From: a virus
Lineage: Duplodnaviria > Caudoviricetes
Reading direction: 5' to 3' (one strand)
Virus record (IMG/VR): IMGVR_UViG_3300025801_000025
Span: 1 to 58,930 of that record
DNA length: 58,930 bases
Within the stretch, counting starts at the first letter, position 1; the number at the start of each line of letters is the position of its first letter. This document shows, in pieces, positions 122 to 58,930 of the stretch. The translations under genes and the position numbers were made by a program. The notes beneath the pieces were generated by a model. The model saw nothing but the letters and a program-made list of their open reading frames with translations. It was not told the DNA's origin and searched no databases.

Positions 122-679
122 CTACCTGTTGTGCCAGATACCTTTATGCCAGACTCCCTCATGCCATGTACCATCTCGCCAAATTCCCCTATGCCAGGTT
201 CCTCCATACCATGTACCATTTTGCCAAACTCCTCCATTCCAAACGCCTTCGTGCCATGTGCCGGAGTTCCATGTGCCGTAGTTCCAAAGGCCTTCGTGCC
301 ATGTGCCAGAGTTCCATGTGCCGTAGTTCCAGACTCCGTAGTGCCAGATGCCGTAGTGCCAGATGCCGTAGTTCCAGACGCCTCCCTGCCATGTGCCGGA
401 GATCCATGTGCCGTTGTTCCAGACGCCTCCTTGCCATGTGCCGGAGATCCATGTGCCGGAGTTCCAAACTCCTCCTTGCCATGTGCCGTTGTGCCACGTT
501 CCGTTTTCCCAGACTCCTCCTTGCCATGTGCCATTTTCCCAAACTCCTCCTTGCCATGTGCCATCTTTCCAAGTTCCGGAGTTCCAGACAACGGTGTTGT
601 TTATCATTTCTACATCTTCGTTGATTGTGTCGGCATCGGACAGCCACTCAGGGCAGTTCGGAAGGTCTTTTATTCTCAT
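122..679 (-). CDS. W-x-x-G-x pentapeptide repeat protein, copy A (185 aa, 30 repeats)
   Basis: Start moved to ATG 679 (AGAGG RBS; leader matches paralogs); the track's TTG 757 is the -35 box of a promoter. Confidence 0.85.
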   Translation of the reverse strand: MRIKDLPNCPEWLSDADTINEDVEMINNTVVWNSGTWKDGTWQGGVWENGTWQGGVWENGTWHNGTWQGGVWNSGTWISGTWQGGVWNNGTWISGTWQGGVWNYGIWHYGIWHYGVWNYGTWNSGTWHEGLWNYGTWNSGTWHEGVWNGGVWQNGTWYGGTWHRGIWRDGTWHEGVWHKGIWHNR

Positions 680-729
680 TGGGATTTCCTCTAGTGCTCT
701 GTTGCGCTTGGTTGTTGGGGGAGACTCAT

Positions 730-757
730 ATCCTACGCTCTTTTTTTTCCGTGTCAA
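730..757 (-). promoter_or_regulatory. Leftward sigma70-like promoter
   Basis: TTGACA-16 bp-TAGGAT upstream of copy A; spacer contains an A8 run. Confidence 0.55.
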
Positions 758-990
758 CTATATTTTTTGATACCTCTTAAAAAATCCTATGGGTACTCCT
801 CCTCGCGCCTATCTAAGGATCGCGCGCGAATAGCACTTCTCATGCCAACCACCAGAAGGGGGGGGGGGTCAGAAAATTCCTACATTTGGCCCTGGGCTAG
901 TTTCGCTTTTGGGTACGCTGTTATACTATTCGTCCGACCCCGCCAACCAAAAACCAAAATCCAAAAACACGCCAACCCTACATAGGTACA

Positions 991-1019
991 TTGACTCTAT
1001 CCCACTATTACCCTATAAT
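991..1019 (+). promoter_or_regulatory. Rightward sigma70 promoter
   Basis: TTGACT-17 bp-TATAAT at the head of the + arm. Confidence 0.8.
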
Positions 1020-1133
1020 AGAACTAACAACACACCACTCCCATACTCCTCATGACCCTTAACCACCTCAAACACCTATGGGCCGCCGCTGGGCACGGTC
1101 ACTCCCTACGCGGATCGCCGGTATACAAACTTC

Positions 1134-1526
1134 ATGGTACATACTCCGACCCGGATACAAACAATACCGCCTCCAACATTCGCCCCGACGCTCCTAACAC
1201 CGGCACAAAAGAAAGGACTTCAATACCAAACACGAGTGGGCAAGTGGCTACAAAAAGAGGCTGATTCCATTGGTTGGACTTTGCACTCTTCTCCATGGCT
1301 TCTTGGACCATGCCAACCTGATTTCATACTTGAATCCCCTTCCTTATGCCTGTTATTAATAGAAGTAAAGCTAACGCAAACGGATTGCGGCCTACAGTTC
1401 GCAAAGTACCGAGAGGTACTAGGCCCGATTCCGTGCGTCCAAATAACCCGCCGATTAAAGTCGGTCCCGACGATGCGGAGCCTGCTCGACTTCCACCATG
1501 GCGGTCTAATGGGTTTGTACTTATAA
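1134..1526 (+). CDS. Small PD-(D/E)XK endonuclease
   Basis: QPDFIL...LLIEVK motif. Confidence 0.65.
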   Translation: MVHTPTRIQTIPPPTFAPTLLTPAQKKGLQYQTRVGKWLQKEADSIGWTLHSSPWLLGPCQPDFILESPSLCLLLIEVKLTQTDCGLQFAKYREVLGPIPCVQITRRLKSVPTMRSLLDFHHGGLMGLYL

Positions 1527-2116
1527 AGGATGGAAATTGGGATAGGCCGAAACCTATATGGCGCCGCCGCCCATTGGATTATACACCTGCCGCGGCAATT
1601 GAAGACGAGGAGCTCTTTGAGCGGTTTAATGGGTATTTTGAAGATTGCTTTGATAATGACCATGCGCCCACTCTTTCGGATATGACTGCTCACGCAGGAT
1701 ACGAGTCAGTTGTCCAAATGGTCAATGATGCTCGCCGCCACGGTCCTGTTCGGATGCGTGGTATGTCTCGTGCAATCCTTGCAATTCAAGCTCACTATGA
1801 AGAGTTAGCTCAACTAGGACATAGACATGCTCTTGCTATCTTAGAGCGTATTCCACAATTCGACTCACGAGAAGCGCCCGAGCAAATTGCTACTCGTGCA
1901 TTCGAACCGCGTCCAGAGCAACACGTAGTTCAAGTAACAGGACTACAACGTGCCGAAGATCAGGGTCGGGAACTATCTCCTATCGACGCCTACAACCAAA
2001 TAATCCAAAAACCATCTTTTCAAGAAATTGCTAACGCAATAGACGTTAGTGCTGGGGAAGATGGAGTTTTTTCACTACCTGACCTTGAAGTCAGTGACGA
2101 TAACAACAGCATCTAA
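1346..2116 (+). CDS. terS: Probable terminase small subunit (start uncertain, possibly ~1523)
   Basis: YFEDC...PTLSDMTAHAG resembles P22 gp3-type TerS; upstream of terL. Confidence 0.55.
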   Translation: MPVINRSKANANGLRPTVRKVPRGTRPDSVRPNNPPIKVGPDDAEPARLPPWRSNGFVLIKDGNWDRPKPIWRRRPLDYTPAAAIEDEELFERFNGYFEDCFDNDHAPTLSDMTAHAGYESVVQMVNDARRHGPVRMRGMSRAILAIQAHYEELAQLGHRHALAILERIPQFDSREAPEQIATRAFEPRPEQHVVQVTGLQRAEDQGRELSPIDAYNQIIQKPSFQEIANAIDVSAGEDGVFSLPDLEVSDDNNSI

Positions 2117-2165
2117 CGCGAGGACTCTAAAGGAATAATATAATGCAATAACATACTATACGGAC

Positions 2166-2215
2166 ATAGTTAAGCCCCTCAACTATACATGGACATAGTT
2201 GAGTTTCTTAACTAT
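2166..2215. repeat. Nested inverted repeat (two 21-bp quasi-palindromes in inverted orientation)
   Basis: ATAGTTAAGcccCTCAACTAT-8 bp-ATAGTTGAGtttCTTAACTAT. Confidence 0.85.
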
Positions 2216-2275
2216 ACGCAGGTAAAAGATATGAGTAGAAATACATAGTTATACTGGCTTGGTTGGCGGAATAAT

Positions 2276-2647
2276 ATGCCCATAAAATATCTTGAGGATG
2301 ATTATATGCCTGAAGGAGTGGAACAAACTCGGCACTACAGGGACGTTTCGGATATGTTAGTCCGAGTATACGACTTGGATAAACGAGTTGCGGTGCTAGA
2401 GAATACGGCCCGTGCTCAAGACGTTCGGTTAAACGTTATCTCGAAGACCGTCGAGTTGATAAGGGAAGAGCAAAAAGAGTTAGGAACTAAGTTATCAGTA
2501 GAGCTAGCTAAGCTCTTTAAAACACTCTTTGAAACACTGAATGAGCACGTAGTAGATGACCAGCGCCGCCAACTTAACATCGCTGGTGTTACAATACTAA
2601 CCCTAATAGGTGTGATGACGACCCTAATAGAATTATTTTTTAGATGA
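2276..2647 (+). CDS. Coiled-coil protein with C-terminal TM helix (holin/antiholin-like)
   Basis: Heptad helix, hydrophobic C-terminus, directly upstream of endolysin. Confidence 0.5.
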   Translation: MPIKYLEDDYMPEGVEQTRHYRDVSDMLVRVYDLDKRVAVLENTARAQDVRLNVISKTVELIREEQKELGTKLSVELAKLFKTLFETLNEHVVDDQRRQLNIAGVTILTLIGVMTTLIELFFR

Positions 2648-3276: not shown

Positions 3277-3285
3277 GAATTTACT

Positions 3286-3609
3286 ATGAATAAGATCCTG
3301 TTAGGCTTAACTATACTTCCTGTAACGGCCTTGGCCGCAACTGTTGATCTTCGGTGGGATCCTGTTGAGCAGGCTGAAAGCTATCAATTGGAGATGGCTA
3401 GAGCTGAATGCACACTAACGCCCTGGGAGGCGGCTGGAAACACTACGGATACAACTTATACTATCTCTGATGTCCCACAAGATTCCCTTTTACTCTTCCG
3501 AGTAGGCTCTGTCAAAGGAGAGCTAAAAGGTATCCGCACATGGTCAGGGGCTTGGTATGATTATCGGTTATTACCGCTAGATACTCCTTCCGGGGCAGGA
3601 ATAGAATAA
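3286..3609 (+). CDS. Secreted fibronectin type III-like protein
   Basis: Signal peptide ending ALA; VDLRWDPV..AESYQL..TTYTI..FRV pattern. Confidence 0.6.
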   Translation: MNKILLGLTILPVTALAATVDLRWDPVEQAESYQLEMARAECTLTPWEAAGNTTDTTYTISDVPQDSLLLFRVGSVKGELKGIRTWSGAWYDYRLLPLDTPSGAGIE

Positions 3610-3613
3610 CCCT

Positions 3614-3850: not shown

Positions 3851-3852
3851 CC

Positions 3853-5496
3853 ATGTCCTCCCGCGCTATTAAGTTCTCCGAAACAATAGACTGGAAGAAT
3901 CCTCTCCCAGCCTACGAGCGTATTATTGAAGCTCGAAAGGAGAACTTAAAGCGCCTTGCTCTTCAACCAGGTTCATTAGAACCCCTCCTACAATACTACC
4001 TAAACGGCCACTGGGCTGAGTTTATATGTGATTGGGGGGTAACATATGATCCTCGTGAGGAAGATATCCGACTCCAGTACCGACCATTTATATTAACCTC
4101 TCGCCAGATAGAGTATGTTGATTGGTTATATGACCATTATAAACATCGCTCACATGGTTTATGTAGAAAGCACCGCGACGCAGGTATGTCGTGGATTCAC
4201 GCCGCGGTCGGCACTCTTCTCTGGCTAGCTCGCCGAAATACAGTAGTAATATATGGTTCTCAAACTGAGGATAAAGTCGATAAAGGGCCTGGAGATCCAG
4301 ATACTCTCTTCTGGAAGATTCGTACATTCATAAAAAATCTTCCTCTTCCATTCCAACCGGCAGACTGGGTTAAGCAATCCAAGCACATGCTAGTAGTAAA
4401 TCCAGTCAACGGGTCTGTATTAAAGGGAGGTGTAGGAGACAATATTGGCCGCGGCGGGCGATCTACTCTTGCCCTTCCGGATGAGTTTGCGGAAGTCCAA
4501 CACCCACAACTAGTAGAATCCTCCCTAATTGCTAACTCTGATTGCATTATCTATGGTAGCACTATCCCTACTGAAGGGTGGAAGGCATCTCATTTTTACC
4601 GCCTTGAGAATCAATTTCCTGAAGAGGACGTATTTGTTTTCGAGTGGTGGCAAGATCCACGCAAACGTCAATCTCCTGATTTACCTGCCGAGAAAGAGCA
4701 TTGGTATGTAAAAACGAAGCAAAAGACTTCCGACGAAGTATTCAAGACTCAGTATCTAATGGTAGATAACACCGCGTCGGCAGTTCAGTTTATCGGTGAG
4801 GATTTGATATTGGCGGCATTTGATAGGAATTCTTTAGATATTCAAATTCCTTCTGATCGTCCGTGGTGTATAGGGGTCGATGCGGCTGGTATGGGAAATG
4901 ATAAGATAAAGATCTGGCGCCGCCGTGGTCGTTTAAACTTATCAGCACTAACTTTTGATTCTATGGACGGCCTACAATTAGCAGCAGTTATACAGGATGT
5001 TGCTAGAGGATTACTAAAAACTGGACCAATAAACCTCGTCTCTATCGAACGAGACGGTCCAGGGGCATCATGTGCTGACCAACTAAAATATACATGGTTA
5101 GCTCCAGTACTACAAGCAATTCATACTGGAGCACGCTTAGGAAACGGATTTGAATATAACCTACGAGCATATCTTCATAAGCAAGCCAAGGATTATTTAG
5201 AAGAAGAAGACCCATACATCCCATACTCAAAAACATTCCTAACCCAGGCTACCGCTATTCACTACGCCTACAAGACTGGGCTTTTACTAATTGAGTCCAA
5301 AGAAGAGTATCGGTCACGATTTGCAATGGGCAGGTCCAAAGCAGAAAAGCTTGCCTCTCGCAGTCCTGATGAGTGGGACTCATTTATGCTTACTTTTATG
5401 CTTCCTACTGGCAAATTGGTTAAATTTCCAGGAGCACTTACCTCTTCTATGTCTAGGGACTCTTGGCAACCAATTGACAAAGTTATGGGGTATTAG
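3853..5496 (+). CDS. terL: Terminase large subunit
   Basis: KHRDAGMSW Walker A variant, LPDEFAE Walker B, GVDAAGMGND and SPDEWDS nuclease motifs. Confidence 0.92.
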   Translation: MSSRAIKFSETIDWKNPLPAYERIIEARKENLKRLALQPGSLEPLLQYYLNGHWAEFICDWGVTYDPREEDIRLQYRPFILTSRQIEYVDWLYDHYKHRSHGLCRKHRDAGMSWIHAAVGTLLWLARRNTVVIYGSQTEDKVDKGPGDPDTLFWKIRTFIKNLPLPFQPADWVKQSKHMLVVNPVNGSVLKGGVGDNIGRGGRSTLALPDEFAEVQHPQLVESSLIANSDCIIYGSTIPTEGWKASHFYRLENQFPEEDVFVFEWWQDPRKRQSPDLPAEKEHWYVKTKQKTSDEVFKTQYLMVDNTASAVQFIGEDLILAAFDRNSLDIQIPSDRPWCIGVDAAGMGNDKIKIWRRRGRLNLSALTFDSMDGLQLAAVIQDVARGLLKTGPINLVSIERDGPGASCADQLKYTWLAPVLQAIHTGARLGNGFEYNLRAYLHKQAKDYLEEEDPYIPYSKTFLTQATAIHYAYKTGLLLIESKEEYRSRFAMGRSKAEKLASRSPDEWDSFMLTFMLPTGKLVKFPGALTSSMSRDSWQPIDKVMGY

Positions 5497-5596
5497 CTAT
5501 ATGGGTACTCGTTTCTTATTGACACTATTAATAGTATCTGGTATTCTAGTAGTAGTATCTAAATCCACTTTTACCCATTATCCACTGGAGTTTAGC

Positions 5597-5791
5597 ATGC
5601 CAAGTTTATGGGATGTATTAACTAAGAGTAGAGAAGAGCGTATGCAAGAGCGTATGGCACAGCCTCAACAACCGGCAAAGCAAATGCCTAAGCAAATGCC
5701 TAAGGTTGCATCTCCTACCGCTCCGCCGGTATCAATGGGCAATACGCTTGATGCTATTAAGCGTAGAAACAAGATGCTAAAAGACATCTAA
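5597..5791 (+). CDS. Small hypothetical protein
   Basis: GGAG RBS plus ATG 5597; stop overlaps the portal start. Confidence 0.55.
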   Translation: MPSLWDVLTKSREERMQERMAQPQQPAKQMPKQMPKVASPTAPPVSMGNTLDAIKRRNKMLKDI

Positions 5792-8168: not shown

Positions 8169-9041
8169 ATGTTTAAGTTAACACATCGATTGATGGATGA
8201 AGAACCAATGGATGGGGAAGGCTCGCTGGATGGGGAAGGCTCGCTGGAAGGTGAAGACTCTTTTGGAGATGAGCCTCTTGATCCTGAATATTTTGTAGGT
8301 GATTTCACGGCAGAAGATACCGCCAACCAGTTAGGATATGTGCGTGAGCTGCCGAATGTCCTACGGGGATTTGAATCCCGTATTGGAGAACTTATTAATC
8401 CAATCATGGATCGCATGAGCGGAATACAAGAGCGGCTTGGGAGCCAACCTGTATTTGAACCTAAACTAGATAAGGTTGTAGATGCACTGCGAACAGGGTT
8501 AAAGGATTATGATAATGGGGAGTTGGGAGATCGTCTAATTAACTCTTTAGTGCCGGCTTTATCTGAGGCTCTAAAGGAATCAATGGCGGTCACTCCTCTA
8601 GGGCCGGAAGCTCTTCAACCCCACATCAATCCTATGTTGGAAAGTTATAACCAACAAATGATGCAATCAGTAGTTCCAGCGCTAATCGATTCCCTACCAT
8701 TTGATGCGGAAGCGATTGTAAGCCGGGATGCTAATGGTAATGTGACTGAACCAAAGACAGAACTACAAAAAGACTTCTTCAGATGGTGGGAACAAGCGGA
8801 TGCTCCTACTCGTCGTGCTCTAGAGAATTTAGACGTTAATTATGCTAGAGCACTACAACGGTTTAGCAAATGGAGAGCTGACCAAATGAAAGGAAGGAAA
8901 CAAGCAGCGGGCGCTACAGCCAGTCGCTTATCAGGAGGTAGACAAACTCCTAGTGTTGGACGCTCCAACTCTTCACCAACCCGTCTTAAAACAGAAGAAG
9001 ACGGTTGGAATTGGTATCAAGCTCAAAAGGCAAAAGGTTGA
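8169..9041 (+). CDS. Capsid scaffolding protein (putative)
   Basis: Acidic N-terminus, helical, directly before the capsid gene. Confidence 0.65.
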   Translation: MFKLTHRLMDEEPMDGEGSLDGEGSLEGEDSFGDEPLDPEYFVGDFTAEDTANQLGYVRELPNVLRGFESRIGELINPIMDRMSGIQERLGSQPVFEPKLDKVVDALRTGLKDYDNGELGDRLINSLVPALSEALKESMAVTPLGPEALQPHINPMLESYNQQMMQSVVPALIDSLPFDAEAIVSRDANGNVTEPKTELQKDFFRWWEQADAPTRRALENLDVNYARALQRFSKWRADQMKGRKQAAGATASRLSGGRQTPSVGRSNSSPTRLKTEEDGWNWYQAQKAKG

Positions 9042-9121
9042 GGCAAAAGGTTGAGGCAAAAGGTTGAGGCAAAAGGTTGAGGCAAAAGGTTGAGGCAAAA
9101 GGTTGAGGCAAAAGGTTGAGG
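9028..9121 (+). repeat. 13-bp tandem repeat x7 (AGGCAAAAGGTTG)
   Basis: Seven perfect copies spanning the scaffold stop and the capsid RBS. Confidence 0.95.
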
Positions 9122-9131
9122 TATTCAAATA

Positions 9132-10181
9132 ATGGCTATTCATAAGCTAGCAACAGATACTGCCCGAGTCGGTGTCATTAAGGGCATTATGCTCGATACG
9201 GCTATGGCGGAAGAGGCATTGAGTTCTGCAGGAGACACCATCCCAATGCAGACTAACGCAGGTAATGTTTATAAGTTCAAGCGGTTTATTTTACCGTCTG
9301 GGACTGATAACCTATGGGTGGCGGCTGGAGGTGACGACGAGTTCGTACAGTCTCGGCAAGCGGCTGAGGGTGTGACTCCCACAGCCAAGTCAGTTTCCTC
9401 CACCATCATTTCTGCAACTCCTATTCGATATTCCGTCCTCTATGGATACACGAAGGAGACAGCAATTCTATTCGAGGATGATATTCCGCATCAGGAAGTA
9501 GAGTTTGCCGGAGATGAAATTCGACTTGTCCGAGAGTTCCATAACTTCGGTAAGTTGAAGGCTGCTACCAATGCGTTCTTTGGGGGTACTGGTGTTACCA
9601 CTGGTACGGTTAATGGTACGATTACAAAGACTCTCTTAATGAAAGTTAAGCAGGATCTTCGTCGGTACCATTGCAAACCCCAGAATAAGGCACTAAAGGG
9701 CAGTACTGATTACGCTACATATCCAATACCAGGGTGTTATCCAGCGTATTGTCATACTGACTTGGAGTATGATATCCGTAACCTTCCTGGGTTTGTGAGT
9801 GTGGAGGAATATGGATCAATGGCAACTATTTCACCCAATGAAATTGGGGCAGATAGACAATCTGGATTCAGATTTGTTCTTACTCCTGAATTGACTTACC
9901 AACCAAATGCTGGTGCGGCAGTCGGCTCAACTGGTCTAGCCTCTGATAATGCTTCGAATATCAATGTGTATTCGATGATTGTAATGGGCCAGAACTACTT
10001 CAAGCAGGTCGCACTTCGTGGCAAGGACTCAGTTCGGGTAAACCATATCCCCTATGACCGTGCCGATAAGGCTGATCCTGGTGGCGACCGCGGTTATATC
10101 TTTGGTGAAACTTACCACGTAGCTGAGATTACTAACCAGGACTGGGGCGCTACTGTTGAAATTGGGCGTACTGCTATCTGA
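9132..10181 (+). CDS. Major capsid protein (N4-gp56-like)
   Basis: EGVTP, CHTDLEYDIRNLPGF..VEEYG, EIG, DP.GDRG motifs. Confidence 0.88.
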   Translation: MAIHKLATDTARVGVIKGIMLDTAMAEEALSSAGDTIPMQTNAGNVYKFKRFILPSGTDNLWVAAGGDDEFVQSRQAAEGVTPTAKSVSSTIISATPIRYSVLYGYTKETAILFEDDIPHQEVEFAGDEIRLVREFHNFGKLKAATNAFFGGTGVTTGTVNGTITKTLLMKVKQDLRRYHCKPQNKALKGSTDYATYPIPGCYPAYCHTDLEYDIRNLPGFVSVEEYGSMATISPNEIGADRQSGFRFVLTPELTYQPNAGAAVGSTGLASDNASNINVYSMIVMGQNYFKQVALRGKDSVRVNHIPYDRADKADPGGDRGYIFGETYHVAEITNQDWGATVEIGRTAI

Positions 10182-24373: not shown

Positions 24374-24575
24374 TGTGAATAAGCTAGCCCAATTCTTGGA
24401 CGCAATGAACAAAAGAGATGCTAAAAGCAAGCTCCCCAGCGGAGGAAGTCAATTTTCTATGGAAGTTGCTCTTGGTCCAAGTGCTAGCGCTAAGAATCAG
24501 GCTATGATGCGACTTCAAAAAGTTCGTCCTATTAAAACTCTCCCCTTGTCAGAGTTGGTAAAAATCCATGGCTGA
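24363..24575 (+). CDS. Small hypothetical protein
   Basis: Fills the gap and overlaps both neighbours. Confidence 0.4.
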   Translation: MELDVNKLAQFLDAMNKRDAKSKLPSGGSQFSMEVALGPSASAKNQAMMRLQKVRPIKTLPLSELVKIHG

Positions 24576-42012: not shown

Positions 42013-42399
42013 CTACCAGTCTTGTTCTGTCTCTCTGTCAATGCCACGCCAAGTACCTCTATGCCAGACTCCTTTGTGCCAAGTTCCATCTTCCCAGATC
42101 CCGTTCTCCCAAATGCCTCCATGCCAATTTCCATTTTTCCAGGTACCTCGTTTCCAGATTCCTCCATGCCACGTGCCATCTCGCCAAACTCCTCCATGCC
42201 AAACTCCTCCGTTCCAGATGCCGTTGTCCCAAATGCCATCCTCCCAAATTCCTCTGCACCAAGTCCCATTCTCCCAAATACCGTTCTCCCAGATTCCATT
42301 CTTCCAAACAATGGTGCCGTCTATTATCTCCACATCTTCATGTCTTGTGCTGGCGTTGGCTAGCCACTGAGGGCAGTTCGGAAGGTCTTTGATTTTCAT
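42013..42399 (-). CDS. W-x-x-G-x repeat protein, copy B (17 repeats)
   Basis: Leader MKIKDLPNCPQWL; AAGGA RBS. Confidence 0.85.
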   Translation of the reverse strand: MKIKDLPNCPQWLANASTRHEDVEIIDGTIVWKNGIWENGIWENGTWCRGIWEDGIWDNGIWNGGVWHGGVWRDGTWHGGIWKRGTWKNGNWHGGIWENGIWEDGTWHKGVWHRGTWRGIDRETEQDW

Positions 42400-42440: not shown

Positions 42441-42839
42441 TTAGAATGACTTGTCTATTTTGGTTCCGTTGTGCCAAGTGCCGGAGTGCCAAGTGCCGTT
42501 GTGCCAGACTCCTCCTTGCCAAGTTCCATCTTCCCAGTTTCCGTTTTCCCAGACTCCTCCTTGCCACGTGCCACCTTGCCAAGTGCCACCTTCCCAGACC
42601 CCTCCATACCAAATTCCCCTGTGCCAAATTCCTCCGTACCAAGTTCCATTTATCCAAGTGCCGGAATTCCAGGTTCCATCAATCCAGGTTCCACTGATCC
42701 AAGTGCCGGAATTCCAGGTGCCGTTGTTCCAAATTCCCCTCTTCCAGACCACGGTGTCACCTAGCATCTCCACATCTTCATGTCTTGTGCTGGCGTTGGC
42801 TAGCCACTGAGGGCAGTTCGGAAGGTCTTTGATTTTCAT
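42441..42839 (-). CDS. W-x-x-G-x repeat protein, copy C (19 repeats)
   Basis: Same leader; 42326-42464 identical to 42766-42904. Confidence 0.85.
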   Translation of the reverse strand: MKIKDLPNCPQWLANASTRHEDVEMLGDTVVWKRGIWNNGTWNSGTWISGTWIDGTWNSGTWINGTWYGGIWHRGIWYGGVWEGGTWQGGTWQGGVWENGNWEDGTWQGGVWHNGTWHSGTWHNGTKIDKSF

Positions 42840-42976
42840 GTGATTTCCTTACGTGTGATTTTCTTACGTGTTTTGTTGGGTTAGAATGACTTGTCTATTT
42901 TGGTGAAGGTACCTCAGCGGCCAAATTTGTGGGTTGACCTGCTTAGTAGCGTTGTTCCGAGAAAACCTAGATCAGC

Positions 42977-51105: not shown

Positions 51106-51107
51106 AG

Positions 51108-51578: not shown

Positions 51579-51589
51579 TATAAGCCTCT

Positions 51590-51856
51590 TTAACTTGTGT
51601 GGTGGTCGTCTAACGCCTGCCGCGTGTAGTTAGTTATAGCCTCAAACTGTATTCGATCCTCCTCCTCAGGGGTTAGAAATGCTTCTAGCCACTCGGCGCG
51701 GTAACCTTTCCGGTCTATTATGTGGAAGCTTATTTCGGTGGACTCGAATGGAACAGCACCGGCGTAGGGATAGGAATCACCTAAGTAGAAGTGATCTATG
51801 ACTACTCCACAAGGAATGTTGTGGATTCGAGTTTTGAATGATGGTGTTTCTTTCAC
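51590..51856 (-). CDS. Hypothetical protein (DRKGY.A.WLE motif)
   Basis: Recurrent small phage protein pattern; start lies in the 20-bp repeat. Confidence 0.65.
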   Translation of the reverse strand: MKETPSFKTRIHNIPCGVVIDHFYLGDSYPYAGAVPFESTEISFHIIDRKGYRAEWLEAFLTPEEEDRIQFEAITNYTRQALDDHHTS

Positions 51857-51935
51857 GAGTAGGGTGTTTCTTTCACGAGTAGGGTGTTTCTTTCACGAGT
51901 AGTGTGTTTCTTTCACGAGTAGGGTGTTTCTTTCA
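51843..51935. repeat. 20-bp tandem repeat x4.6
   Basis: GGTGTTTCTTTCACGAGTAG, one mismatch. Confidence 0.95.
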
Positions 51936-52415
51936 TGGTACGTACAGATCCTTGGCGATGTCCAAGTTGAGCTGATCTGAGATAGGTTGATAAAAGGAAT
52001 TTGGTCTTTCCTTGGGTAAAGCCCTATTGGCATATTCTGGGTTAGTACAGAATAATGGCCCTTGTTCGTCTGCCAGGGAGTACTTGCAAAGTGCGGTACT
52101 TGCATAGGGAATGTTGGGGTTTTTATGTTGCGCCCAGCAATAGGATTTGGATTTATCACACCATTTTGGTTTAAAAAGGTAGTACTTGTCTCGGGTTTCT
52201 ACAAGGTGGATTTTGTGTGTTGTTAGATTAATCATGGAAGTGTGCCTGGGAGGGTCCAAATGTATGGAAGTGTGCCTGGGTCCTCAGACCACCCAAATTG
52301 GCTATACCAAGTTGGGGTTGGATGATAGGACATTATCATACGAGCTAATTCAAAGTCGTCAGGGGTTTTCGATCTAGGTTTGGAAGGGGAGTGTTTTTTC
52401 CATTGTGATTTTAGC

Positions 52416-53901: not shown

Positions 53902-54123
53902 TCACCATAGCGTTACTTTGGTTTTTGATTTGGGAAATAGGACTACGCGGGAGATAGGAAAGAGAATCTCTTCGTCCCACCCAACTCTCCTCCCGTCTAT
54001 TTCTACTGCTTTGTTTTGGCACCACCTTTTTAGCTCGCTGTTGGTCGCTTGTTGGGGAGTGCGCTCTCGCGAGGTGAAATGACAGACTGTATTGAGTGTT
54101 GTGAGGAAGGTCCAAGCATTCAT
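53902..54123 (-). CDS. Hypothetical protein
   Basis: SELKRW...AVEIDG..., FPKSK pattern; coupled. Confidence 0.55.
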   Translation of the reverse strand: MNAWTFLTTLNTVCHFTSRERTPQQATNSELKRWCQNKAVEIDGRRVGWDEEILFPISRVVLFPKSKTKVTLW

Positions 54124-54332
54124 TGCGAGAGTATTCCTATATCGCCTGCTTCACGGCGACGATCCAACTCCTCGGCTACGAGTTGACGGAATTCTAGGGG
54201 TACTTGGACACGGTTTAGGTTTATGAGCCACAGAATAAGTTGAGCTGAGGTAGCAGCTCGGATATTTTCAGAGGCTAGGGCAAACGTATTGGGATGTATC
54301 CAGTAGTCTCCTTTGTCGGACAGGTTAATCAT
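54120..54332 (-). CDS. Hypothetical protein starting with a duplicated fragment of the LbH gene
   Basis: NLSDKGDYWIHPNTFAL vs NLSHEGDCWIHPNAFAL. Confidence 0.45.
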   Translation of the reverse strand: MINLSDKGDYWIHPNTFALASENIRAATSAQLILWLINLNRVQVPLEFRQLVAEELDRRREAGDIGILSQ

Positions 54333-54431
54333 GGTAGCGGATCCTCGTCTTGATGGTTGATTGTGTGCTGGGGGACATCCTTGTCCGTCTGCCTTTCCTT
54401 GTCCGTTGGGAGCTTGCTCTTGCGCTTGCTC

Positions 54432-54896
54432 TTATTCGTTGGATGCTCGTATTGCGGTAGTTTCGTATGCCCCGTTGGATGCTCGTATTGCGGTAGTTTC
54501 GTATGCCCCGTTGGATGCTCGTATTGCGGTAGTTTCGTATGCCCCGTTGGAGAGGTGTTTTGCCCACCAAGTCTCTCCTGCTGAGTCGAACACCCGTTGG
54601 ATATTTCCCTTGATTGTAGCACCGACTCCGATAACGTGGCGTGTTATTTTGGGTGCCTTGATTAAGACTATATCGTCTTCTATTTGTTTTGAGCGGTGTT
54701 GGATTACGATTATGGGACGATGGTCGTTAGGCGCCTTAAGGCGAGCCTGTTCTATGTCTGAAGGTTTGGGGCGGTATTTCATCCAGTGAGCTTTGTTGTT
54801 GGTGTCGAGCCAGTGGTAGTAACGCCGGCTGCCGGCAGCCGGCGTTACAACAGTCTTGGTTTGCCCAGTATAAGTGAACGATGAAGGTGCTGGCAT
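54432..54896 (-). CDS. Hypothetical protein with a 12-aa C-terminal triplication
   Basis: AGGA RBS; SNGAYETTAIRA x3. Confidence 0.6.
   Translation of the reverse strand: MPAPSSFTYTGQTKTVVTPAAGSRRYYHWLDTNNKAHWMKYRPKPSDIEQARLKAPNDHRPIIVIQHRSKQIEDDIVLIKAPKITRHVIGVGATIKGNIQRVFDSAGETWWAKHLSNGAYETTAIRASNGAYETTAIRASNGAYETTAIRASNE
54437..54551. repeat. 36-bp tandem repeat x3
   Basis: CGTTGGATGCTCGTATTGCGGTAGTTTCGTATGCCC, no spacers. Confidence 0.95.
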
Positions 54897-54937
54897 TGAA
54901 TGGTTTCCTGTACTATTGGTTTTCGTTTGAGGTTGAG

Positions 54938-55753
54938 TTAGAACGGTTTGGCTATTTTGGTGAATGTGCCTCCACAGATTCTTGCCTTTTCCCCGTCACA
55001 GTCTAATAGGTCTTCGAGGGCGAATTCTACTCGCCAGAGTTGGCATGTTGAGTGGTCATTGAAGGATGTCCAGGCTTTGACGATAGATGTTACGGGGAGA
55101 CCTTTTGGTAGCTCTTTTTCAGTGAAGGTACCTTCTTTTTGGATGAAGTTTTTAGTGAATTTTCCTTTTCCATCGCAGGTGGTTGCCCTATACCCGGTGG
55201 CTACGCCTTGGGAGACGGTTATTCCAGCTAGGGCGAGGCGGTAGAGGATAGGATTTTCAATGCCTTGCCAGATGCCGTTGTGCCAGGTGCCGGAGTTCCA
55301 GGTTCCGTTGAGCCAAGTACCGTTGTGCCAGACTCCCGATTCCCAAAGGCCTCCCTGCCATGTGCCGGAGTTCCATGTGCCGTAGTTCCAGACGCCTCCT
55401 TGCCATGTGCCGGTGATCCATGTGCCGGAGTTCCAAACTCCTCTGTCCCAGGTGCCGTTGTGCCAGGTGCCAGAGTTCCAAGTTCCGTTGTGCCAGATGC
55501 CGTTGTGCCAGGTGCCGGAGTTCCAAGTTCCGTAGGTCCAGTTTCCGTTGACCCAGGTTCCATCGACCCAGATGCCGGAGTGCCAGGTGCCGGAGTTCCA
55601 GGTTCCGTAGACCCAAATTCCATCAATCCAAGTGCCGGAGTTCCAGGTTCCGGAGTTCCAGACAACGGTGTTGTTTATCATTTCTACATCTTCGTTGATT
55701 GTGTCGGCATCGGACAGCCACTCAGGGCAGTTCGGAAGGTCTTTTATTTTCAT
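54938..55753 (-). CDS. W-x-x-G-x repeat protein, copy D (26 repeats plus ~110-aa globular C-terminal domain)
   Basis: Leader nearly identical to copy A at DNA level; AGAGG RBS. Confidence 0.88.
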   Translation of the reverse strand: MKIKDLPNCPEWLSDADTINEDVEMINNTVVWNSGTWNSGTWIDGIWVYGTWNSGTWHSGIWVDGTWVNGNWTYGTWNSGTWHNGIWHNGTWNSGTWHNGTWDRGVWNSGTWITGTWQGGVWNYGTWNSGTWQGGLWESGVWHNGTWLNGTWNSGTWHNGIWQGIENPILYRLALAGITVSQGVATGYRATTCDGKGKFTKNFIQKEGTFTEKELPKGLPVTSIVKAWTSFNDHSTCQLWRVEFALEDLLDCDGEKARICGGTFTKIAKPF

Positions 55754-55819
55754 GGGTTTCCTCTTAGTGCATTATTTTTGTGGATTTGGCCACCCTTCCG
55801 TGGGGGCCTATGTCTTGTA

Positions 55820-56032
55820 TTACGCGGCGGCGGCCGTCAGCGCAATGGCCTTACGGCAAGTCTCTGTGCATACGCGGCTCCATAAAACCATAGCATTCAA
55901 ATTTGTGGGTTGGCATTGCGTGCGAAGCACGTGCTTGTAGTGGCCGAATCCTGCGACAATTGAGGGTTCTGGATCATCTTCGTACATGAAACCTTGGACT
56001 GTCCTGTTGTTGTAATTGATTTCGATTTTCAT
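55820..56032 (-). CDS. Hypothetical protein
   Basis: AAGGAG RBS plus ATG 56032; upstream sequence shared with copies B/C. Confidence 0.5.
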   Translation of the reverse strand: MKIEINYNNRTVQGFMYEDDPEPSIVAGFGHYKHVLRTQCQPTNLNAMVLWSRVCTETCRKAIALTAAAA

Positions 56033-56145
56033 GGGGGATCTCCTTACGTGTTTTGTTGGGTTGAGGTTGAGGTTGAGGAAGCGGCTGCGGTGTTTTTGGG
56101 GGGTCGATGGGAGGTGTTTGGTGTTTTTGGGGGGTCGATGGGAGG

Positions 56146-56174
56146 AGTGTATCATGGGGGATGGCGGATATCAA
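56146..56174 (-). promoter_or_regulatory. Leftward sigma70 promoter
   Basis: TTGATA-17 bp-TACACT with extended -10 TG. Confidence 0.65.
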
Positions 56175-56203
56175 GTAAAAACAAGTCATTTTTTGTGCAG
56201 GGA

Positions 56204-56653
56204 TAAGTGGTTGATTTTAGGGGAGTAGTGCACAATGAATCAATGGGTTAGTGGCCCTACTTCAAGGATGGGGTCTACAATGATATCCCCAAAAATCATG
56301 GTATAAACAAGTCGTTTGTGCGGGGGAGATAAGTGGTTGATTTTAGGGGAGGAGTGCACAATGAATCAATGAGTTGTTGGCCCCACTTCAAAAGCCCTAT
56401 TTCATATGGGGGGGGAGTGCCGCGAAGTGGTTGTTTGTAGGTGCTCGAAAATGGGTGTTTGTGCCACAGGGGAGTGTTGTTTTAAAAAGACCAATAGGAA
56501 GTGTTACATATATATATATATATTGTATACTTTTTTACCACCGTTTTAGGCCCTTGTAAATTTAGTTGATTTTGGGGTTATTTGATGATTGGCAAAATTT
56601 GTTCTAAGTCATTGATTTTTAAGGATTTCTCTGAACAATGAATCAATAACTTG
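56204..56653. promoter_or_regulatory. Three inverted pairs of IHF-consensus sites in a non-coding region
   Basis: WATCAANNNNTTR at 56204-16(-), 56238-50(+), 56330-42(-), 56364-76(+), 56605-17(-), 56641-53(+). Confidence 0.7.
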
Positions 56654-56836
56654 AATATCTAAGGGGTATCCCTAAGTTGTGGTATGGATATTTGGTGTTA
56701 TTTTTGGCGTTTTTTTGGAATGAGGTTCACAATTTGCCCCAAAAATGCCGTTTTTATGCAAGGCTTGTGCCTGCTTTTTTGGAATGAAGTTCACGCCTTT
56801 TTTCGATTAAATATCGTGCCAATATGCATGAATAAT

Positions 56837-56872
56837 AAAAAAAAAAGTGCCCTATTTTCATAGAGCACTTTT
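56837..56872 (-). terminator. Intrinsic terminator
   Basis: AAAAGTGCTCTAT-GAAA-ATAGGGCAC followed by T10. Confidence 0.85.
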
Positions 56873-56887
56873 AAGCAAGGTTTGTGC

Positions 56888-57484
56888 CTATTTCACACGA
56901 TTTAGCTTTATGCGCTTTATGCCACATGTTGCGGATTTGCACAACAAATCCTTACTATTCTCTAGAGCTATAAACGCTCCAGGAGACCCAGGAGTTATAT
57001 CCTTTTCAGCATCCTTGATAATTTGCTGAGAGTACTCCTCTAAATACTCGCGCATATCTCGCATCGCGGATTCTTTTTCAGGGCCAGCTTCACACGATGC
57101 GAGGATTACTTGCCGGCAATAGGTTTCTTTTGCTCGCGCAAGCGTGCGACTTGATACAGGCTTATCCGCTTCTTTATGGTTGATTGCGGCAAAATAGGCA
57201 ATCCAACCACGTTGGGTGGCATCAAGTCTAGGCCCTGATATGCCTACTCCGGGCACTTCTCCACGTACTACTACGCGGTCGAATTTGTCTTGTACCGCTT
57301 TAAGACCTTCATCGGTGCCGGCTTTTCCGGCAATGCTTTCCGTGATAGCGTTTTGGAGACCTTTGGCTATTGCCCATTCGAACCACTCGGGCGATTTGCC
57401 TTGGAGTTTCACAGTCCGGGTGCCGATTTCACGGCGGAATTCAACACGAATTTCTATGGGAAGCTGAATTGCGAACGGTTTCAT
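56888..57484 (-). CDS. Hypothetical early protein
   Basis: AAGG RBS; followed by terminator. Confidence 0.7.
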   Translation of the reverse strand: MKPFAIQLPIEIRVEFRREIGTRTVKLQGKSPEWFEWAIAKGLQNAITESIAGKAGTDEGLKAVQDKFDRVVVRGEVPGVGISGPRLDATQRGWIAYFAAINHKEADKPVSSRTLARAKETYCRQVILASCEAGPEKESAMRDMREYLEEYSQQIIKDAEKDITPGSPGAFIALENSKDLLCKSATCGIKRIKLNRVK

Positions 57485-57493
57485 GGTGTTACC

Positions 57494-57688
57494 TTATTTT
57501 GGGAACATTGGTTGCAATATGCGACGAATCGCCTGGGAGTTTCTCTTATACCCATGTTTTTTCAGATTATTTGGCCTCCATTCGTCTAGAGGGCATGGCT
57601 GGACTAGGGCGTTGGTTTTGATGTGGAATGGGAGAGTTCGATCAAATCGATCTTTTAGGCCATTGATGGCTGTCTCGTTCTGGTACAT
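57494..57688 (-). CDS. Small hypothetical protein
   Basis: GAGGTG RBS. Confidence 0.5.
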   Translation of the reverse strand: MYQNETAINGLKDRFDRTLPFHIKTNALVQPCPLDEWRPNNLKKHGYKRNSQAIRRILQPMFPK

Positions 57689-57697
57689 GCTGTCACC

Positions 57698-58207
57698 TCA
57701 CTGTAAGTAGAGTTGATCGTCGGACCAAACATACATATTGGACTCCCCATATGCATGTGCATTCTCGGTCAGAGTCTCACCGATCTTGCCCAGTCCGCTG
57801 TCCCAAAATCCAGTACCATGTCGGTTCCGGGTGAACCAGAAATCGCGGCCTATGCTTTCTTCGGATAGACCAGCTAAGAGAGCTTCGTTTTCGGTTATGA
57901 AGTCCTGGCAATCCTCCATGGCCAAAGCACGGGCCTCCAGGCTCACATCCTCGATATCATATTGGTCATTTAGTGGATCCCCCTCCTCATCTGTAGACGC
58001 CCAAATAGCCACTTCCAAATATGCCGCAACCACCTTTTCGATGTTCATCGGGTGTCGTGGCTCAGGATCACCCATCCATCCTACCACTATCCGCTCCACG
58101 TGTGCGTTTGGCATCGCTGCCGATGTGCGTAAGTACTGCTCGGCCTGCTCTACCGTCGTAAACCTCGCCCAGGTTGTATCTCGTCTCTTCACCGCGTAAT
58201 AGGTCAT
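57698..58207 (-). CDS. Acidic conserved phage early protein
   Basis: AYLEVAIWAS, DFWFTRNRHGTGFWD motif. Confidence 0.7.
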   Translation of the reverse strand: MTYYAVKRRDTTWARFTTVEQAEQYLRTSAAMPNAHVERIVVGWMGDPEPRHPMNIEKVVAAYLEVAIWASTDEEGDPLNDQYDIEDVSLEARALAMEDCQDFITENEALLAGLSEESIGRDFWFTRNRHGTGFWDSGLGKIGETLTENAHAYGESNMYVWSDDQLYLQ

Positions 58208-58315
58208 TGGTTTTTCCTCGTTGGTTTGTGGGGAGCACTGGTGGGCAATGCTTTGTTGGGGATGCTATTTTCTACCAGCCGTGTTCTGTCCTAGTCGAGA
58301 TGGTCGTGGGAGAAC

Positions 58316-58540
58316 TTACTCGCGTCCTACCTCCCACTCATGGGCGTTGTCTTCCGTGATATAGAAGCATGTTCTTAATCCGTACTTCACGGGAAGGCGA
58401 AACTCTGTAGGCCGAGTCTTCCATGTCTTACACTTCCCATTCACCCTACACCGTAGCGGAGTGCCATCGGCATTTTTGGCGCTCACGTGGTGGAATTCAT
58501 TCCTGTACCTTGCACCGACCGCAATACTCATCATGATCAT
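58316..58540 (-). CDS. Small conserved phage protein
   Basis: RVNGKCKTWKTRP..FRLPVKYGL; GGAGG RBS. Confidence 0.65.
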   Translation of the reverse strand: MIMMSIAVGARYRNEFHHVSAKNADGTPLRCRVNGKCKTWKTRPTEFRLPVKYGLRTCFYITEDNAHEWEVGRE

Positions 58541-58543
58541 CTC

Positions 58544-58720
58544 TCATTCCTCCGTCGCTTTCACAAATCTGTCTTTGTCAAACCGTGGGTTGTCGCCAGC
58601 CAGCTCCATAGCTAGCTGTTCACATACTCTTTTCCAGCACCCATAAGCTTCAACCCTATCAGGCTCTGGACGCGTGTATGCTACTGCTCTCGCGATACGC
58701 ACATGATCTTTTCTAGTCAT
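58544..58720 (-). CDS. 58-aa protein (DNPRFD..RF motif)
   Basis: GGAG RBS plus ATG; MTRKDHVRIA...DNPRFDKDRFVKA; in frame with upstream W repeats. Confidence 0.65.
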   Translation of the reverse strand: MTRKDHVRIARAVAYTRPEPDRVEAYGCWKRVCEQLAMELAGDNPRFDKDRFVKATEE

Positions 58721-58930
58721 TGTCTTATCTCCACTAAGGTTCTCTCTTACCGCGAGCCAAGTTCCACCTTGCCAGATGCCACCCTTCCAAACTCCTTCTA
58801 GCCAAGTTCCATTTTTCCAGATGCCACCCTTCCAAACTCCTCCATGCCAGGCGCCATTTCTCCAGATGCCACCCTTCCAAACTCCCCTGCGCCAAGTTCC
58901 GTTTTTCCAAATTCCTTCTTCCCAAATTCC
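58544..58930 (-). CDS. 3' part of W-x-x-G-x repeat protein copy E, reading through into the 58-aa ORF
   Basis: GIWEEGIWKNGTW...WQGGTWLAVRENLSGDKT-MTRK with no stop; 11 full repeats visible. Confidence 0.75.
   Translation of the reverse strand, partial: GIWEEGIWKNGTWRRGVWKGGIWRNGAWHGGVWKGGIWKNGTWLEGVWKGGIWQGGTWLAVRENLSGDKTMTRKDHVRIARAVAYTRPEPDRVEAYGCWKRVCEQLAMELAGDNPRFDKDRFVKATEE

What the first reader, a model, noticed from the sequence alone, without database searches (positions are those of the whole stretch)
122..58930. Five-member dispersed family of W-x-x-G-x pentapeptide proteins: candidate diversifying phage system
Seen: five - strand genes (122-679, 42013-42399, 42441-42839, 54938-55753, and 58544-58930 probably joined to 1-39) share a 31-aa leader, then strict 5-aa repeats with invariant W1 and G4, restricted position 5 (mostly T/I/V) and highly variable positions 2-3. 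Repeat counts are 30, 17, 19, 26 and at least 11, and the C-termini differ. Inference: a Trp-cored beta-solenoid with variable surface residues, analogous to but distinct from A(D/N)LXX pentapeptide DNA mimics. The copies lie in the early arm without signal peptides, which suggests intracellular host-interaction or anti-defence roles. Five Trp-costly copies in a compact genome suggest selection for a repertoire.
Basis: partly seen in the sequence, partly recalled or inferred. Interest (0 to 1): 0.82.

Follow-up and report, generated by a model that had tools for sequence, protein, structure and literature searches.

The report
Tryptophan five-residue-repeat phage rod proteins
This uncultured wetland phage carries five early genes for thin rod-shaped proteins built from strict Trp-x-x-Gly-x repeats; they belong to a large phage protein family that no catalogue names and whose function is unknown.

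Summary
Five minus-strand genes share a 31-residue N-terminus followed by 103 uninterrupted, in-phase W-x-x-G-x units (W and G 103 of 103). The fifth gene is cut by the record's ends; an intact 182-aa copy exists on a 59,089-bp contig.

The "leader" is the N-terminal cap of the repeat domain, because it also occurs inside longer relatives, mostly just before an array. The family is large (3,111 clusters at E<=1e-3) and phage-borne. No Pfam, PHROG or NCBIfam name covers it.

Two AlphaFold2 models give a confident beta-solenoid with three repeats (15 residues) per coil. Independent sequence statistics agree: charges at position 2 are opposite at a lag of three repeats and not at four. It is therefore not a canonical four-sided pentapeptide-repeat protein, though probably a distant cousin.

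Multi-copy sets are usual in this family (8 tandem genes in one 36-kb phage, about 13 in a 140-kb one). I found no reverse transcriptase and no variation between four metagenome runs, so an active diversifying mechanism is not supported. Ordinary duplication with gene conversion of the cap is supported.

Function is unknown. My best guess is a set of early binding proteins. This scan found the same repeat earlier in other phages.

The parts
122..679 (-). Gene A: 185 aa, 31-aa cap + 30 W-x-x-G-x repeats + WHNR. It is the first gene of the leftward arm. GAGGA lies 8-12 nt before the ATG.
730..757 (-). Sigma-70-like site TTGACA-16-TAGGAT (10 of 12) just upstream of gene A, in the divergent region between the two arms.
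   Evidence: This is a consensus match only: 2 sites were found against 1.4 expected in shuffles.
1..39 (-). First 13 codons (MKIKDLPNCPEWL) of gene E, cut by the end of the record.
   Evidence: the intact form is P0007
58544..58930 (-). 3' part of gene E: the last 11 repeats plus a 71-aa non-repeat C-terminus. The intact gene has 182 aa and about 16 repeats. Its repeat region is basic (net +6).
42013..42399 (-). Gene B: 128 aa, cap + 17 repeats.
42441..42839 (-). Gene C: 132 aa, cap + 19 repeats. It is the tandem partner of B, with a 440-nt start-to-start spacing.
42840..42905 (-). Duplicated block upstream of C: the last 24 nt of a family gene (...TKIDKSF*) plus a 41-nt spacer. It is identical to the block upstream of B and is a footprint of unequal recombination.
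54938..55753 (-). Gene D: 271 aa, cap + 26 repeats + a roughly 109-aa C-terminal domain (residues 163-271, about 54941-55267). Family members P0054 and P0173 share this domain.

Best explanation
The five genes are paralogues of a large, unnamed phage protein family.

Structure. Each product is a cytoplasmic 'cap plus rod'. A conserved 31-residue N-terminal cap (two short helices and a beta-hairpin) nucleates an uninterrupted Trp-x-x-Gly-x array. The array coils three repeats (15 residues) per turn into a thin right-handed beta-solenoid. By inference, Trp points inward, x3-Gly4 form the corner, and positions 2 and 5 lie on the surface. The rods would be about 25-50 Angstrom long (5-10 coils). 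The structural reading I hold at about 0.8.

Evolution. The paralogues differ in rod length, in surface charge (-3 to +6 over the repeat region) and in C-terminal module (none in A-C, a roughly 109-aa domain in D, a small helical tail in E). They arose by duplication. The cap-coding segment has been kept identical by gene conversion while the arrays diverged.

Function (inferred, not shown; about 0.35). The genes lie in the early/replication arm, and two of them are the first genes behind a host-type promoter. They most likely act early in infection as rigid binding proteins: a small repertoire of inhibitors or adaptors for host (or phage) macromolecules.
For: - Anatomy.
- Fold: AF2 on D (pLDDT 89-98 for residues 1-140) and on E (92-98 for residues 1-110). 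Both give the same cap and a DSSP pattern with a 15-residue period.
- Independent of AF2: in 170 arrays (3,219 repeats) from the proteins fetched, position-2 charges are anticorrelated at a lag of 3 repeats (z -6.9). There are 622 opposite against 448 same-sign pairs, and 91 arrays with more opposite pairs against 41 with more same-sign pairs. At lags 2 and 4 the ratio is 1.03-1.04. This is what stacked salt-bridge ladders give if three repeats make a coil, and it puts position 2 on the surface.
- Cap as part of the domain: an HMM of the cap finds 53 caps in 47 of 150 representatives (17 of the 47 by construction). Of these caps, 25 are internal and 38 lie within 6 residues of an array start. 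Six proteins carry two cap+array units.
- Family size: 3,111 / 1,538 / 350 clusters at E<=1e-3 / 1e-10 / 1e-30.
- Selection: scrambled synonymous sites with invariant W and G.
B vs C is 100% identical from -60 to +60 and then 60-76%.
- Early placement.
- The same pattern elsewhere: eight tandem cap+array genes next to a recombination-type gene at 2.9-6.7 kb of a complete 36-kb phage. About 13 open frames in a complete 140-kb phage. Five in a 440-kb phage.
Against: - No experiment, no expression data and no partner. No RNA run holds the region, which says nothing either way.
[quoted passage not shown] Coordinates could not be inspected, so 'Trp inside' rests on the strand register and on the exposure of position 2.
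- Three Trp side chains per 15-residue coil is a very dense core by my own rough estimate (inference, not computed).
- Foldseek found no PDB match at E<=1e-3.
- The lag-3 signal at the other positions is weak (z 2-3).
- The promoter match is no better than chance in number.
- In other phages the repeat sits in long multidomain proteins. Earlier notes of this scan say it also sits behind head-targeting tags, so a cytoplasmic early role need not hold for the whole family.
Confidence: 0.4

Rival explanations
1. They are pentapeptide-repeat-type DNA mimics (like Qnr, MfpA or AlbG) that protect or inhibit a topoisomerase, or block restriction enzymes.
For: - The motif maps onto the pentapeptide register, with G = i-2 and W = i (inference).
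- Three of 40 long relatives give sub-threshold Pentapeptide_4 hits and two give LD_SV2 hits.
- The common C-terminal end domain of the family weakly matches the same place in a canonical phage pentapeptide protein (16.1 bits, E 1.8e-4 among 408 sequences; BLAST E 0.005).
- VIA-align lists EfsQnr at Z 11.2, rmsd 3.4 over 147 residues.
- Gene A is the first gene of the arm, which I recall is where T7 places its DNA-mimic gene ocr (gene 0.3).
- One relative (P0025) has a repeat region of net -23.
Against: - The window's repeat regions are near neutral or basic (-3, -1, -2, -3, +6).
- Three, not four, repeats per coil give a thinner rod than B-DNA-sized pentapeptide proteins.
- No copy hits any Pentapeptide model even at E<=1.
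- Better structural matches are generic right-handed beta-helices (Ag43b, Z 12.8, rmsd 2.2).
Confidence: 0.12
2. They are virion proteins: cargo packed in the head and injected, or fibre or decoration parts.
For: - Earlier notes of this scan describe the same repeat behind T4-style head-targeting tags in T4-like phages (not tested here).
- One 3,182-aa relative matches a 'virion structural protein' PHROG in another part of the chain.
- Rod-like solenoids are common in tail fibres and spikes (one search lists several).
Against: - All five genes lie on the strand and arm that holds the replication and nucleotide-metabolism genes, opposite the structural genes.
- The N-terminus is a structural cap of the solenoid, not a cleavable tag.
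- A-C have no other domain that could anchor them to a particle.
Confidence: 0.12
3. They are inert rigid spacers or scaffolds whose only role is geometric, with no specific partner for the rod surface. The short forms would be degenerate leftovers of longer multidomain genes.
For: - In most relatives the array links other domains (median length 426 aa; N-terminal domain + array + C-terminal domain in L009).
- Array length varies from 11 to 74 units.
Against: - The short cap+array forms are intact and keep ribosome-binding sites.
- They recur as tandem sets in other complete phages.
- They are kept unchanged in four runs.
Confidence: 0.1
4. An active diversification system (retroelement-driven or slippage-driven hypervariation) rewrites the arrays.
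For: - The cap and flanks are identical while the arrays are only 50-76% alike.
- Five copies lie in one 59-kb genome.
Against: - No reverse transcriptase. RVT_1 found nothing here while it rang in 3 of the 14 control genomes.
- No template/variable repeat pair among the repeat families.
- No indels and only a few substitutions across contigs of four runs.
- Synonymous sites are scrambled.
Confidence: 0.03

Closest known systems
Pentapeptide repeat proteins (Rfr fold; Pfam PF00805, PF13576, PF13599; Qnr, MfpA, AlbG, Np275/276)
   Same: - A five-residue period.
- A large hydrophobic residue every fifth position, with a small residue two positions before it.
- A predicted right-handed beta-helix.
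- Capped rods with add-on end domains.
- Phage copies occur in multi-gene sets (earlier scan note e1-5969041).
- Weak sequence links.
   Different: - Trp/Gly instead of Leu-Phe/Ala.
- No model reaches its threshold.
- Three rather than four repeats per coil.
- The surface is not acidic.
Right-handed three-sided beta-helices of autotransporters (antigen 43: 7kob, 7koh) and pectate lyases (1ee6)
   Same: Best low-rmsd structural matches to the model: Z 12.8 with rmsd 2.2 over 138 residues, Z 11.3 with rmsd 2.1 over 136, and Z 11.4 with rmsd 2.4 over 125.
   Different: - Those coils are longer: 138 model residues align within a span of about 187 chain residues (0-186).
- They are secreted and have aliphatic cores.
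- There is no sequence relation, and Z of this size is common for repeats (note).
MORN repeats (source of the database label 'phosphatidylinositol 4-phosphate 5-kinase 5-like' on Pseudomonas phage PspYZU05 gp54)
   Same: Shared G-x-W-x-x-G word. The only PDB sequence hit is the MORN protein RSP1 at E 0.014. gp54 is a true family member with a cap.
   Different: MORN units are about 23 residues long and form hairpin sheets (recalled, not tested). Here the period is strictly 5. The kinase label is a misnomer.
DUF7666 / T4 rIIB-like domain proteins of phages that carry other solenoid repeats
   Same: The ESM Atlas model of D's C-terminal domain is structure-like (TM by query 0.72-0.84) to viral clusters. 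Members of those clusters carry Hexapep, B_solenoid_ydck, Pentapeptide, DUF7666 or Phage_T4_rIIB.
   Different: There is no sequence support: Pfam finds nothing at E<=10, hhalign probability is 0.2 and BLAST E is 0.39. My own AF2 model of this part is below pLDDT 50. This is a lead only.
Trp-pentapeptide solenoid proteins noted earlier by this scan in other phages (e1-6018063, e1-6018070, e1-1021244)
   Same: The same W-x-x-G-x repeat, multi-copy sets, and three repeats per turn in the AF2 models.
   Different: Those carry other N-terminal domains or head-targeting tags. Here the proteins are minimal cap+rod forms in the early arm of a 59-kb phage whose capsid protein is distantly like those of N4-type phages.

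Membership tests
Pentapeptide repeat family (Pfam Pentapeptide clan, Rfr fold) | Repeat consensus A(D/N)(L/F)XX recognised by PF00805, PF13576 or PF13599 at the gathering score | tested here: not met
   0 of 5 window proteins hit any Pfam family of the clan at E<=1. Of 40 top relatives, 3 hit Pentapeptide_4 below its cut-off (24.7-35.6 bits against 38) and none hit above it.
Pentapeptide repeat family (Pfam Pentapeptide clan, Rfr fold) | Four pentapeptides (20 residues) per coil, quadrilateral beta-helix | tested here: not met
   DSSP period is 15 in two AF2 models. Charge anticorrelation appears at lag 3 (z -6.9) and not at lag 4 (z -1.5) in 170 arrays. Caveat: these are models and statistics, not a solved structure.
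Pentapeptide repeat family (Pfam Pentapeptide clan, Rfr fold) | Structural similarity to solved members | tested here: inconclusive
   EfsQnr Z 11.2 (rmsd 3.4), Np275/276 Z 10.6 (rmsd 4.3), AlbG Z 10.0 (rmsd 5.0), MfpA Z 9.4. They rank among many generic beta-helices. No solved chain of any family reached E<=1e-3 in Foldseek, and none of the rows shown was a pentapeptide protein.
DNA-mimic pentapeptide proteins (Qnr/MfpA type) | Strongly acidic rod surface and tail-to-tail dimer | tested here: not met
   Net charge of the repeat regions is -3, -1, -2, -3 and +6.
Diversity-generating retroelement target | Reverse transcriptase plus a template/variable repeat pair | tested here: not met
   RVT_1 found nothing in the record while it rang in 3 of the 14 control genomes. 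There is no such repeat pair among the 10 direct-repeat families.
MORN repeat proteins | Units of about 23 residues, recognised by MORN models | tested here: not met
   The period is strictly 5. There is no Pfam hit. The only link is RSP1 at E 0.014.
Unnamed Trp-pentapeptide (W-x-x-G-x) solenoid family of phages | N-terminal cap motif (..CPxWL..A.T.N.DV.I..G.V.W) directly followed by in-phase W-x-x-G-x units | tested here: met
   All five copies have it. The cap HMM scores the four window frames not used to build it at 57-65 bits, and finds caps in 47 of 150 representatives.
Unnamed Trp-pentapeptide (W-x-x-G-x) solenoid family of phages | Significant profile match to other members | tested here: met
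   13 relatives of 72-231 aa at E 9e-44 to 5e-11. 3,111 clusters at E<=1e-3 with the family profile. The BFVD top hit is PspYZU05 gp54 at E 5e-12, rmsd 1.0, 49% identity.

The most novel reading that the evidence does not exclude
W-x-x-G-x arrays define a beta-solenoid class that has not been described: a 15-residue, three-sided coil with a tryptophan core and its own cap. Many unrelated phage lineages expand this class into early-gene repertoires, from 5 to more than 13 paralogues per genome. The paralogues would be rigid, surface-variable binders that neutralise host defence or takeover targets. That would make them a phage counterpart of the ankyrin or pentapeptide-repeat expansions of large viruses.
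Probability: 0.3. Interest if true: 0.8.

Novelty: new variant of a known kind. Interest (0 to 1): 0.62.

Why it matters
- A family of at least several hundred, perhaps thousands, of clusters has no Pfam, PHROG or NCBIfam name, and its few database labels are wrong (a 'kinase-like' protein, a 'photosystem II assembly factor').
- If the three-per-coil Trp solenoid is real, it adds a new member to the small set of beta-solenoid geometries. It would also be a compact, very regular scaffold of interest for protein design.
- The recurrent multi-copy sets in early regions of unrelated phages point to a host-directed role that nobody has tested.
- Pseudomonas phage PspYZU05 gp54 offers a culturable entry point.

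Tried and rejected
- Megablast of 54000-58930 against isolated phages: no match.
- The search for related loci with the 16-sequence alignment failed for lack of a conserved 7-10-column stretch. Single proteins were used instead.
- 115 of the 125 phage records hit by tblastn are Rheinheimera phages. The one read here (Barba5S gp043) has a different x-N-T-G-x repeat (Pentapeptide_2 + DUF7666) and is not this family.
- Foldseek against the PDB: nothing at E<=1e-3. The top rows were left-handed hexapeptide helices with TM about 0.15. The same helices reach Z about 13 in VIA-align, but at rmsd about 11.
- Homologues of the family's common C-terminal end domain: the word-based search found only 2 close relatives and no canonical pentapeptide proteins.
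- DUF7666/rIIB relationship of D's C-terminus: no sequence support.
- The cap HMM did not hit the canonical pentapeptide protein P0169 at E<=1.
- PHROGs on 24 relatives: only 'unknown function' families, plus one 'virion structural protein' hit elsewhere in a 3,182-aa chain.
- NCBIfam: nothing for 10 proteins.
- RNA evidence: no RNA holder listed among 12 runs.
- Complex prediction (homodimer of C) was not available.
- Relatives of the virus record cannot be drawn by the genome search.
- Literature: four searches found no paper on this repeat. The searches were 'pentapeptide repeat/tryptophan/phage/beta-helix', 'tryptophan-rich/pentapeptide repeat/bacteriophage', 'pentapeptide repeat protein/phage/early/anti-defense' and 'tryptophan/pentapeptide repeats/solenoid/phage' (0 papers). 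Only listings were read. Subscription journals are not covered.

Full report
**What is there**

The window is a whole IMG/VR virus record of 58,930 bases that CheckV rates complete. Structural genes and an endolysin-like gene lie on the plus strand (about 0.8-30.8 kb). Replication and nucleotide-metabolism genes lie on the minus strand (31-58.9 kb). The major capsid protein is 26-30% identical to those of Stenotrophomonas, Xanthomonas, Roseobacter and Pseudomonas phages. I recall several of these as N4-like. The host is unknown. The DNA occurs in 12 wetland-metagenome runs.

| Gene | Coordinates | Length | Repeats |
|---|---|---|---|
| A | 122-679 | 185 aa | 30 |
| B | 42013-42399 | 128 aa | 17 |
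| C | 42441-42839 | 132 aa | 19 |
| D | 54938-55753 | 271 aa | 26 |
| E | 58544-58930 plus 1-39 | cut by the record's ends | at least 11 |

- The 103 repeat units are in phase and uninterrupted. W1 and G4 are invariant, position 5 is T/I/V in 97 of 103, position 3 is N/G/S/D in 79 of 103, and position 2 is polar and variable.
- Joining the record's ends directly would skip part of the N-terminus. An intact 182-aa copy of E (P0007) exists on a 59,089-base contig. The record therefore lacks about 123 bases at a repeat-induced assembly break.
- All five starts have a GAGGA or AAGGA ribosome-binding site.

**Real genes under selection**

- 85 of the 103 15-nt units are distinct.
- The invariant Gly uses GGC 47, GGA 46, GGT 7 and GGG 3.
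- Position-5 Thr uses all four codons.

The arrays are therefore old, and W and G are held by purifying selection. Contigs assembled independently from four runs (2017 and 2019) reproduce 41.0-58.9 kb at about 100% identity, with no indels and a handful of substitutions. They break, as expected, inside the arrays and caps.

**How the copies arose**

- B and C are a 440-nt tandem duplication. The last 24 nt of a family gene, the 41-nt spacer and the first 60 or so nt of the next gene are identical upstream of both.
- A, D and E share a cap-coding block that is 95/96 identical. Identity falls to 20-30% just upstream of it and to 50-73% in the arrays.
- Identical caps next to diverged arrays are best explained by gene conversion, or recombination, at the cap.
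- There is no reverse transcriptase and no template/variable repeat pair.

**The family**

- None of the five hits Pfam at E<=1, nor NCBIfam. PHROGs gives only a weak hit to phrog_14105, of unknown function.
- A word-based search of 5.8 billion proteins found 13 relatives of similar length.
- A profile search of 1.84 billion cluster representatives found 3,111 clusters at E<=1e-3, 1,538 at 1e-10 and 350 at 1e-30, with lengths of 181-3,182 aa among the best 150. Repeat composition may inflate the weakest of these.
- Of 40 top hits, 33 have no Pfam family at E<=1e-4 and none has a repeat family above its threshold. Three give sub-threshold Pentapeptide_4 hits and two give LD_SV2 hits.
- Among isolated phages, the only member I read is Pseudomonas phage PspYZU05 gp54, mislabelled 'phosphatidylinositol 4-phosphate 5-kinase 5-like'. 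tblastn also matched five uncultured huge-phage records and two Ralstonia phage records, which I did not read.
- The 115 Rheinheimera phage hits belong to a different x-N-T-G-x repeat.
- ESM Atlas neighbours are clusters recorded as 100% viral.

**The 'leader' is a cap**

An HMM of the 31-residue N-terminus finds 53 copies in 47 of the 150 representatives, 17 of them by construction.

- 25 copies are internal.
- 38 lie within six residues of the start of an array.
- Six proteins carry two cap+array units.

In both AF2 models the segment forms two short helices and a hairpin stacked on the first coil. Cap plus array is therefore one domain. It occurs alone (A, B, C) or combined with other N- and C-terminal domains.

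**Fold**

- AF2 with family alignments gave pLDDT 89-98 for residues 1-140 of D and 92-98 for residues 1-110 of E. Both show a DSSP pattern that repeats every 15 residues, that is three repeats per coil. The C-terminal parts are poorly modelled.
- Foldseek found no PDB match at E<=1e-3.
- VIA-align's low-rmsd matches are right-handed beta-helices: antigen 43b at Z 12.8 with rmsd 2.2 over 138 residues, and a pectate lyase at Z 11.4 with rmsd 2.4. Pentapeptide proteins follow at rmsd 3.4-5.6, and left-handed hexapeptide helices appear only at rmsd about 11.
- AF2 over-predicts solenoids for repeats (PMC11795689, abstract read), so I looked for evidence in the sequences alone. In 170 arrays (3,219 repeats), the charge at position 2 is strongly anticorrelated at a lag of three repeats (z -6.9; 622 opposite against 448 same-sign pairs) and not at lags 2 or 4 (ratios 1.03 and 1.04). 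Weaker positive signals appear at lag 3 for position 3 and for hydrophobic position 2.
- This is the signature of residues stacked 15 apart. It also places position 2, and hence position 5, on the surface and Trp inside. The Trp orientation is an inference, because the coordinates could not be inspected.
- Three Trp side chains in a 15-residue coil is a dense core. Only an experimental structure will settle this.

**Relation to pentapeptide-repeat proteins**

The register G(i-2)-phi-W(i)-x-x parallels A-(D/N)-(L/F)-x-x. The end domain common in the family (...IGCKTKT..EWD.WF...) weakly matches the same place in a canonical phage pentapeptide protein (16.1 bits, E 1.8e-4 among 408 sequences; BLAST E 0.005). 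Together with the sub-threshold Pfam hits, this suggests distant kinship. The defining features were tested and are not met: the consensus, the model scores, and four repeats per coil. I therefore do not file the proteins as members.

**C-terminal modules**

- D's C-terminal domain of about 109 aa is shared with P0054 and P0173.
- The Atlas model of that domain resembles domains in viral clusters whose members carry Hexapep, YdcK-solenoid, Pentapeptide, DUF7666 or T4 rIIB families. Sequence tests do not confirm this, so it is a lead only.
- E has a 71-aa tail, partly helical at low confidence.

**Copy number elsewhere**

Eleven other virus records were examined. All were chosen because they hold a member.

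- Seven hold two or more distinct frames.
- One complete 36.3-kb phage has eight tandem cap+array genes at 2.9-6.7 kb, beside a recombination-type gene.
- One complete 139.9-kb phage has about 13 frames between 26.6 and 50.3 kb.
- One complete 440.9-kb phage has five.
- One 29-kb fragment has three tandem genes of 441-560 aa.

The five-member set here is thus typical of the family rather than exceptional.

**Function**

Nothing shows it.

- Placement: A and E are the first genes of the leftward arm, behind a TTGACA-16-TAGGAT site. D lies 3 kb further on, and B and C sit between the ligase and an exonuclease gene.
- The proteins have no hydrophobic N-terminus.
- The repeat surfaces differ between copies (net charge -3 to +6 here, and -23 to +6 among the ten members computed).

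I therefore favour a small repertoire of early cytoplasmic binding proteins directed at host or phage macromolecules, at about 0.35. DNA mimicry (0.12), virion cargo (0.12) and passive spacers (0.10) are rivals. An active diversifying mechanism is unlikely (0.03).

**Earlier findings of this scan**

The same repeat was noted in three other phage genomes (e1-6018063, e1-6018070, e1-1021244), and a 16-gene array of canonical pentapeptide proteins in another (e1-5969041). They agree on three repeats per turn and on multi-copy sets. The head-targeting reading proposed for those genomes does not apply to the architecture found here.

Noticed in passing
window 55727-58930: Contig depth is about 1.5-1.8 times that of 41-55 kb in all three well-covered runs (131 vs 85, 34 vs 19, 34 vs 18.6). 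The step lies at the cap of gene D, and the segment ends in the cap of gene E. It could be a long terminal repeat, a duplication between cap copies in part of the population, or a second strain sharing this segment.
   Followed up: no
window 9015-9134: About seven tandem copies of a 13-nt unit (AGGCAAAAGGTTG) fill the gap just upstream of the major capsid gene (9132-10181).
   Followed up: no
window 51823-51942: Five tandem copies of a 20-nt unit (GGTGTTTCTTTCACGAGTAG) lie in the minus-strand arm. They could be protein-binding sites or an origin-like iteron array.
   Followed up: no
window 56175-56265 and 56301-56391: Two 91-nt copies, 85% alike and 126 nt apart, lie in a stretch where the only frames listed are short (60-71 aa) and on both strands. 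They are candidate paired regulatory elements or promoters.
   Followed up: no
window 54437-54551: Three perfect 36-nt tandem repeats lie inside ORF 54432-54896 (minus strand, 154 aa), the gene just downstream of gene D.
   Followed up: no
window 24568-30783: A 2,071-aa protein at the end of the structural arm matches only the C-terminal parts of three PHROGs of 2,800-3,900 aa with unknown function. I suspect a relative of the giant virion proteins of N4-like phages, but that is recalled, not tested.
   Followed up: no
L012 3707-4684 (Rheinheimera phage Barba5S gp043): A different strict five-residue repeat, x-N-T-G-x (Pentapeptide_2), follows a DUF7666 domain. Two genes downstream lies a canonical A(D/N)LxG pentapeptide protein whose C-terminal end resembles the end domain of the Trp family.
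   Followed up: partly
L014 2859-6734 (complete 36.3-kb IMG/VR phage): Eight back-to-back cap+W-array genes of 76-240 aa take up about 10% of the genome. A small membrane-like ORF (5442-5696) is inserted in the array.
   Followed up: partly
L010 8787-9734: In a 440-kb phage, two small W-repeat genes sit next to an ORF with amidoligase-like motifs. One representative (P0048) fuses an Amidoligase_2 domain directly to a W array.
   Followed up: no
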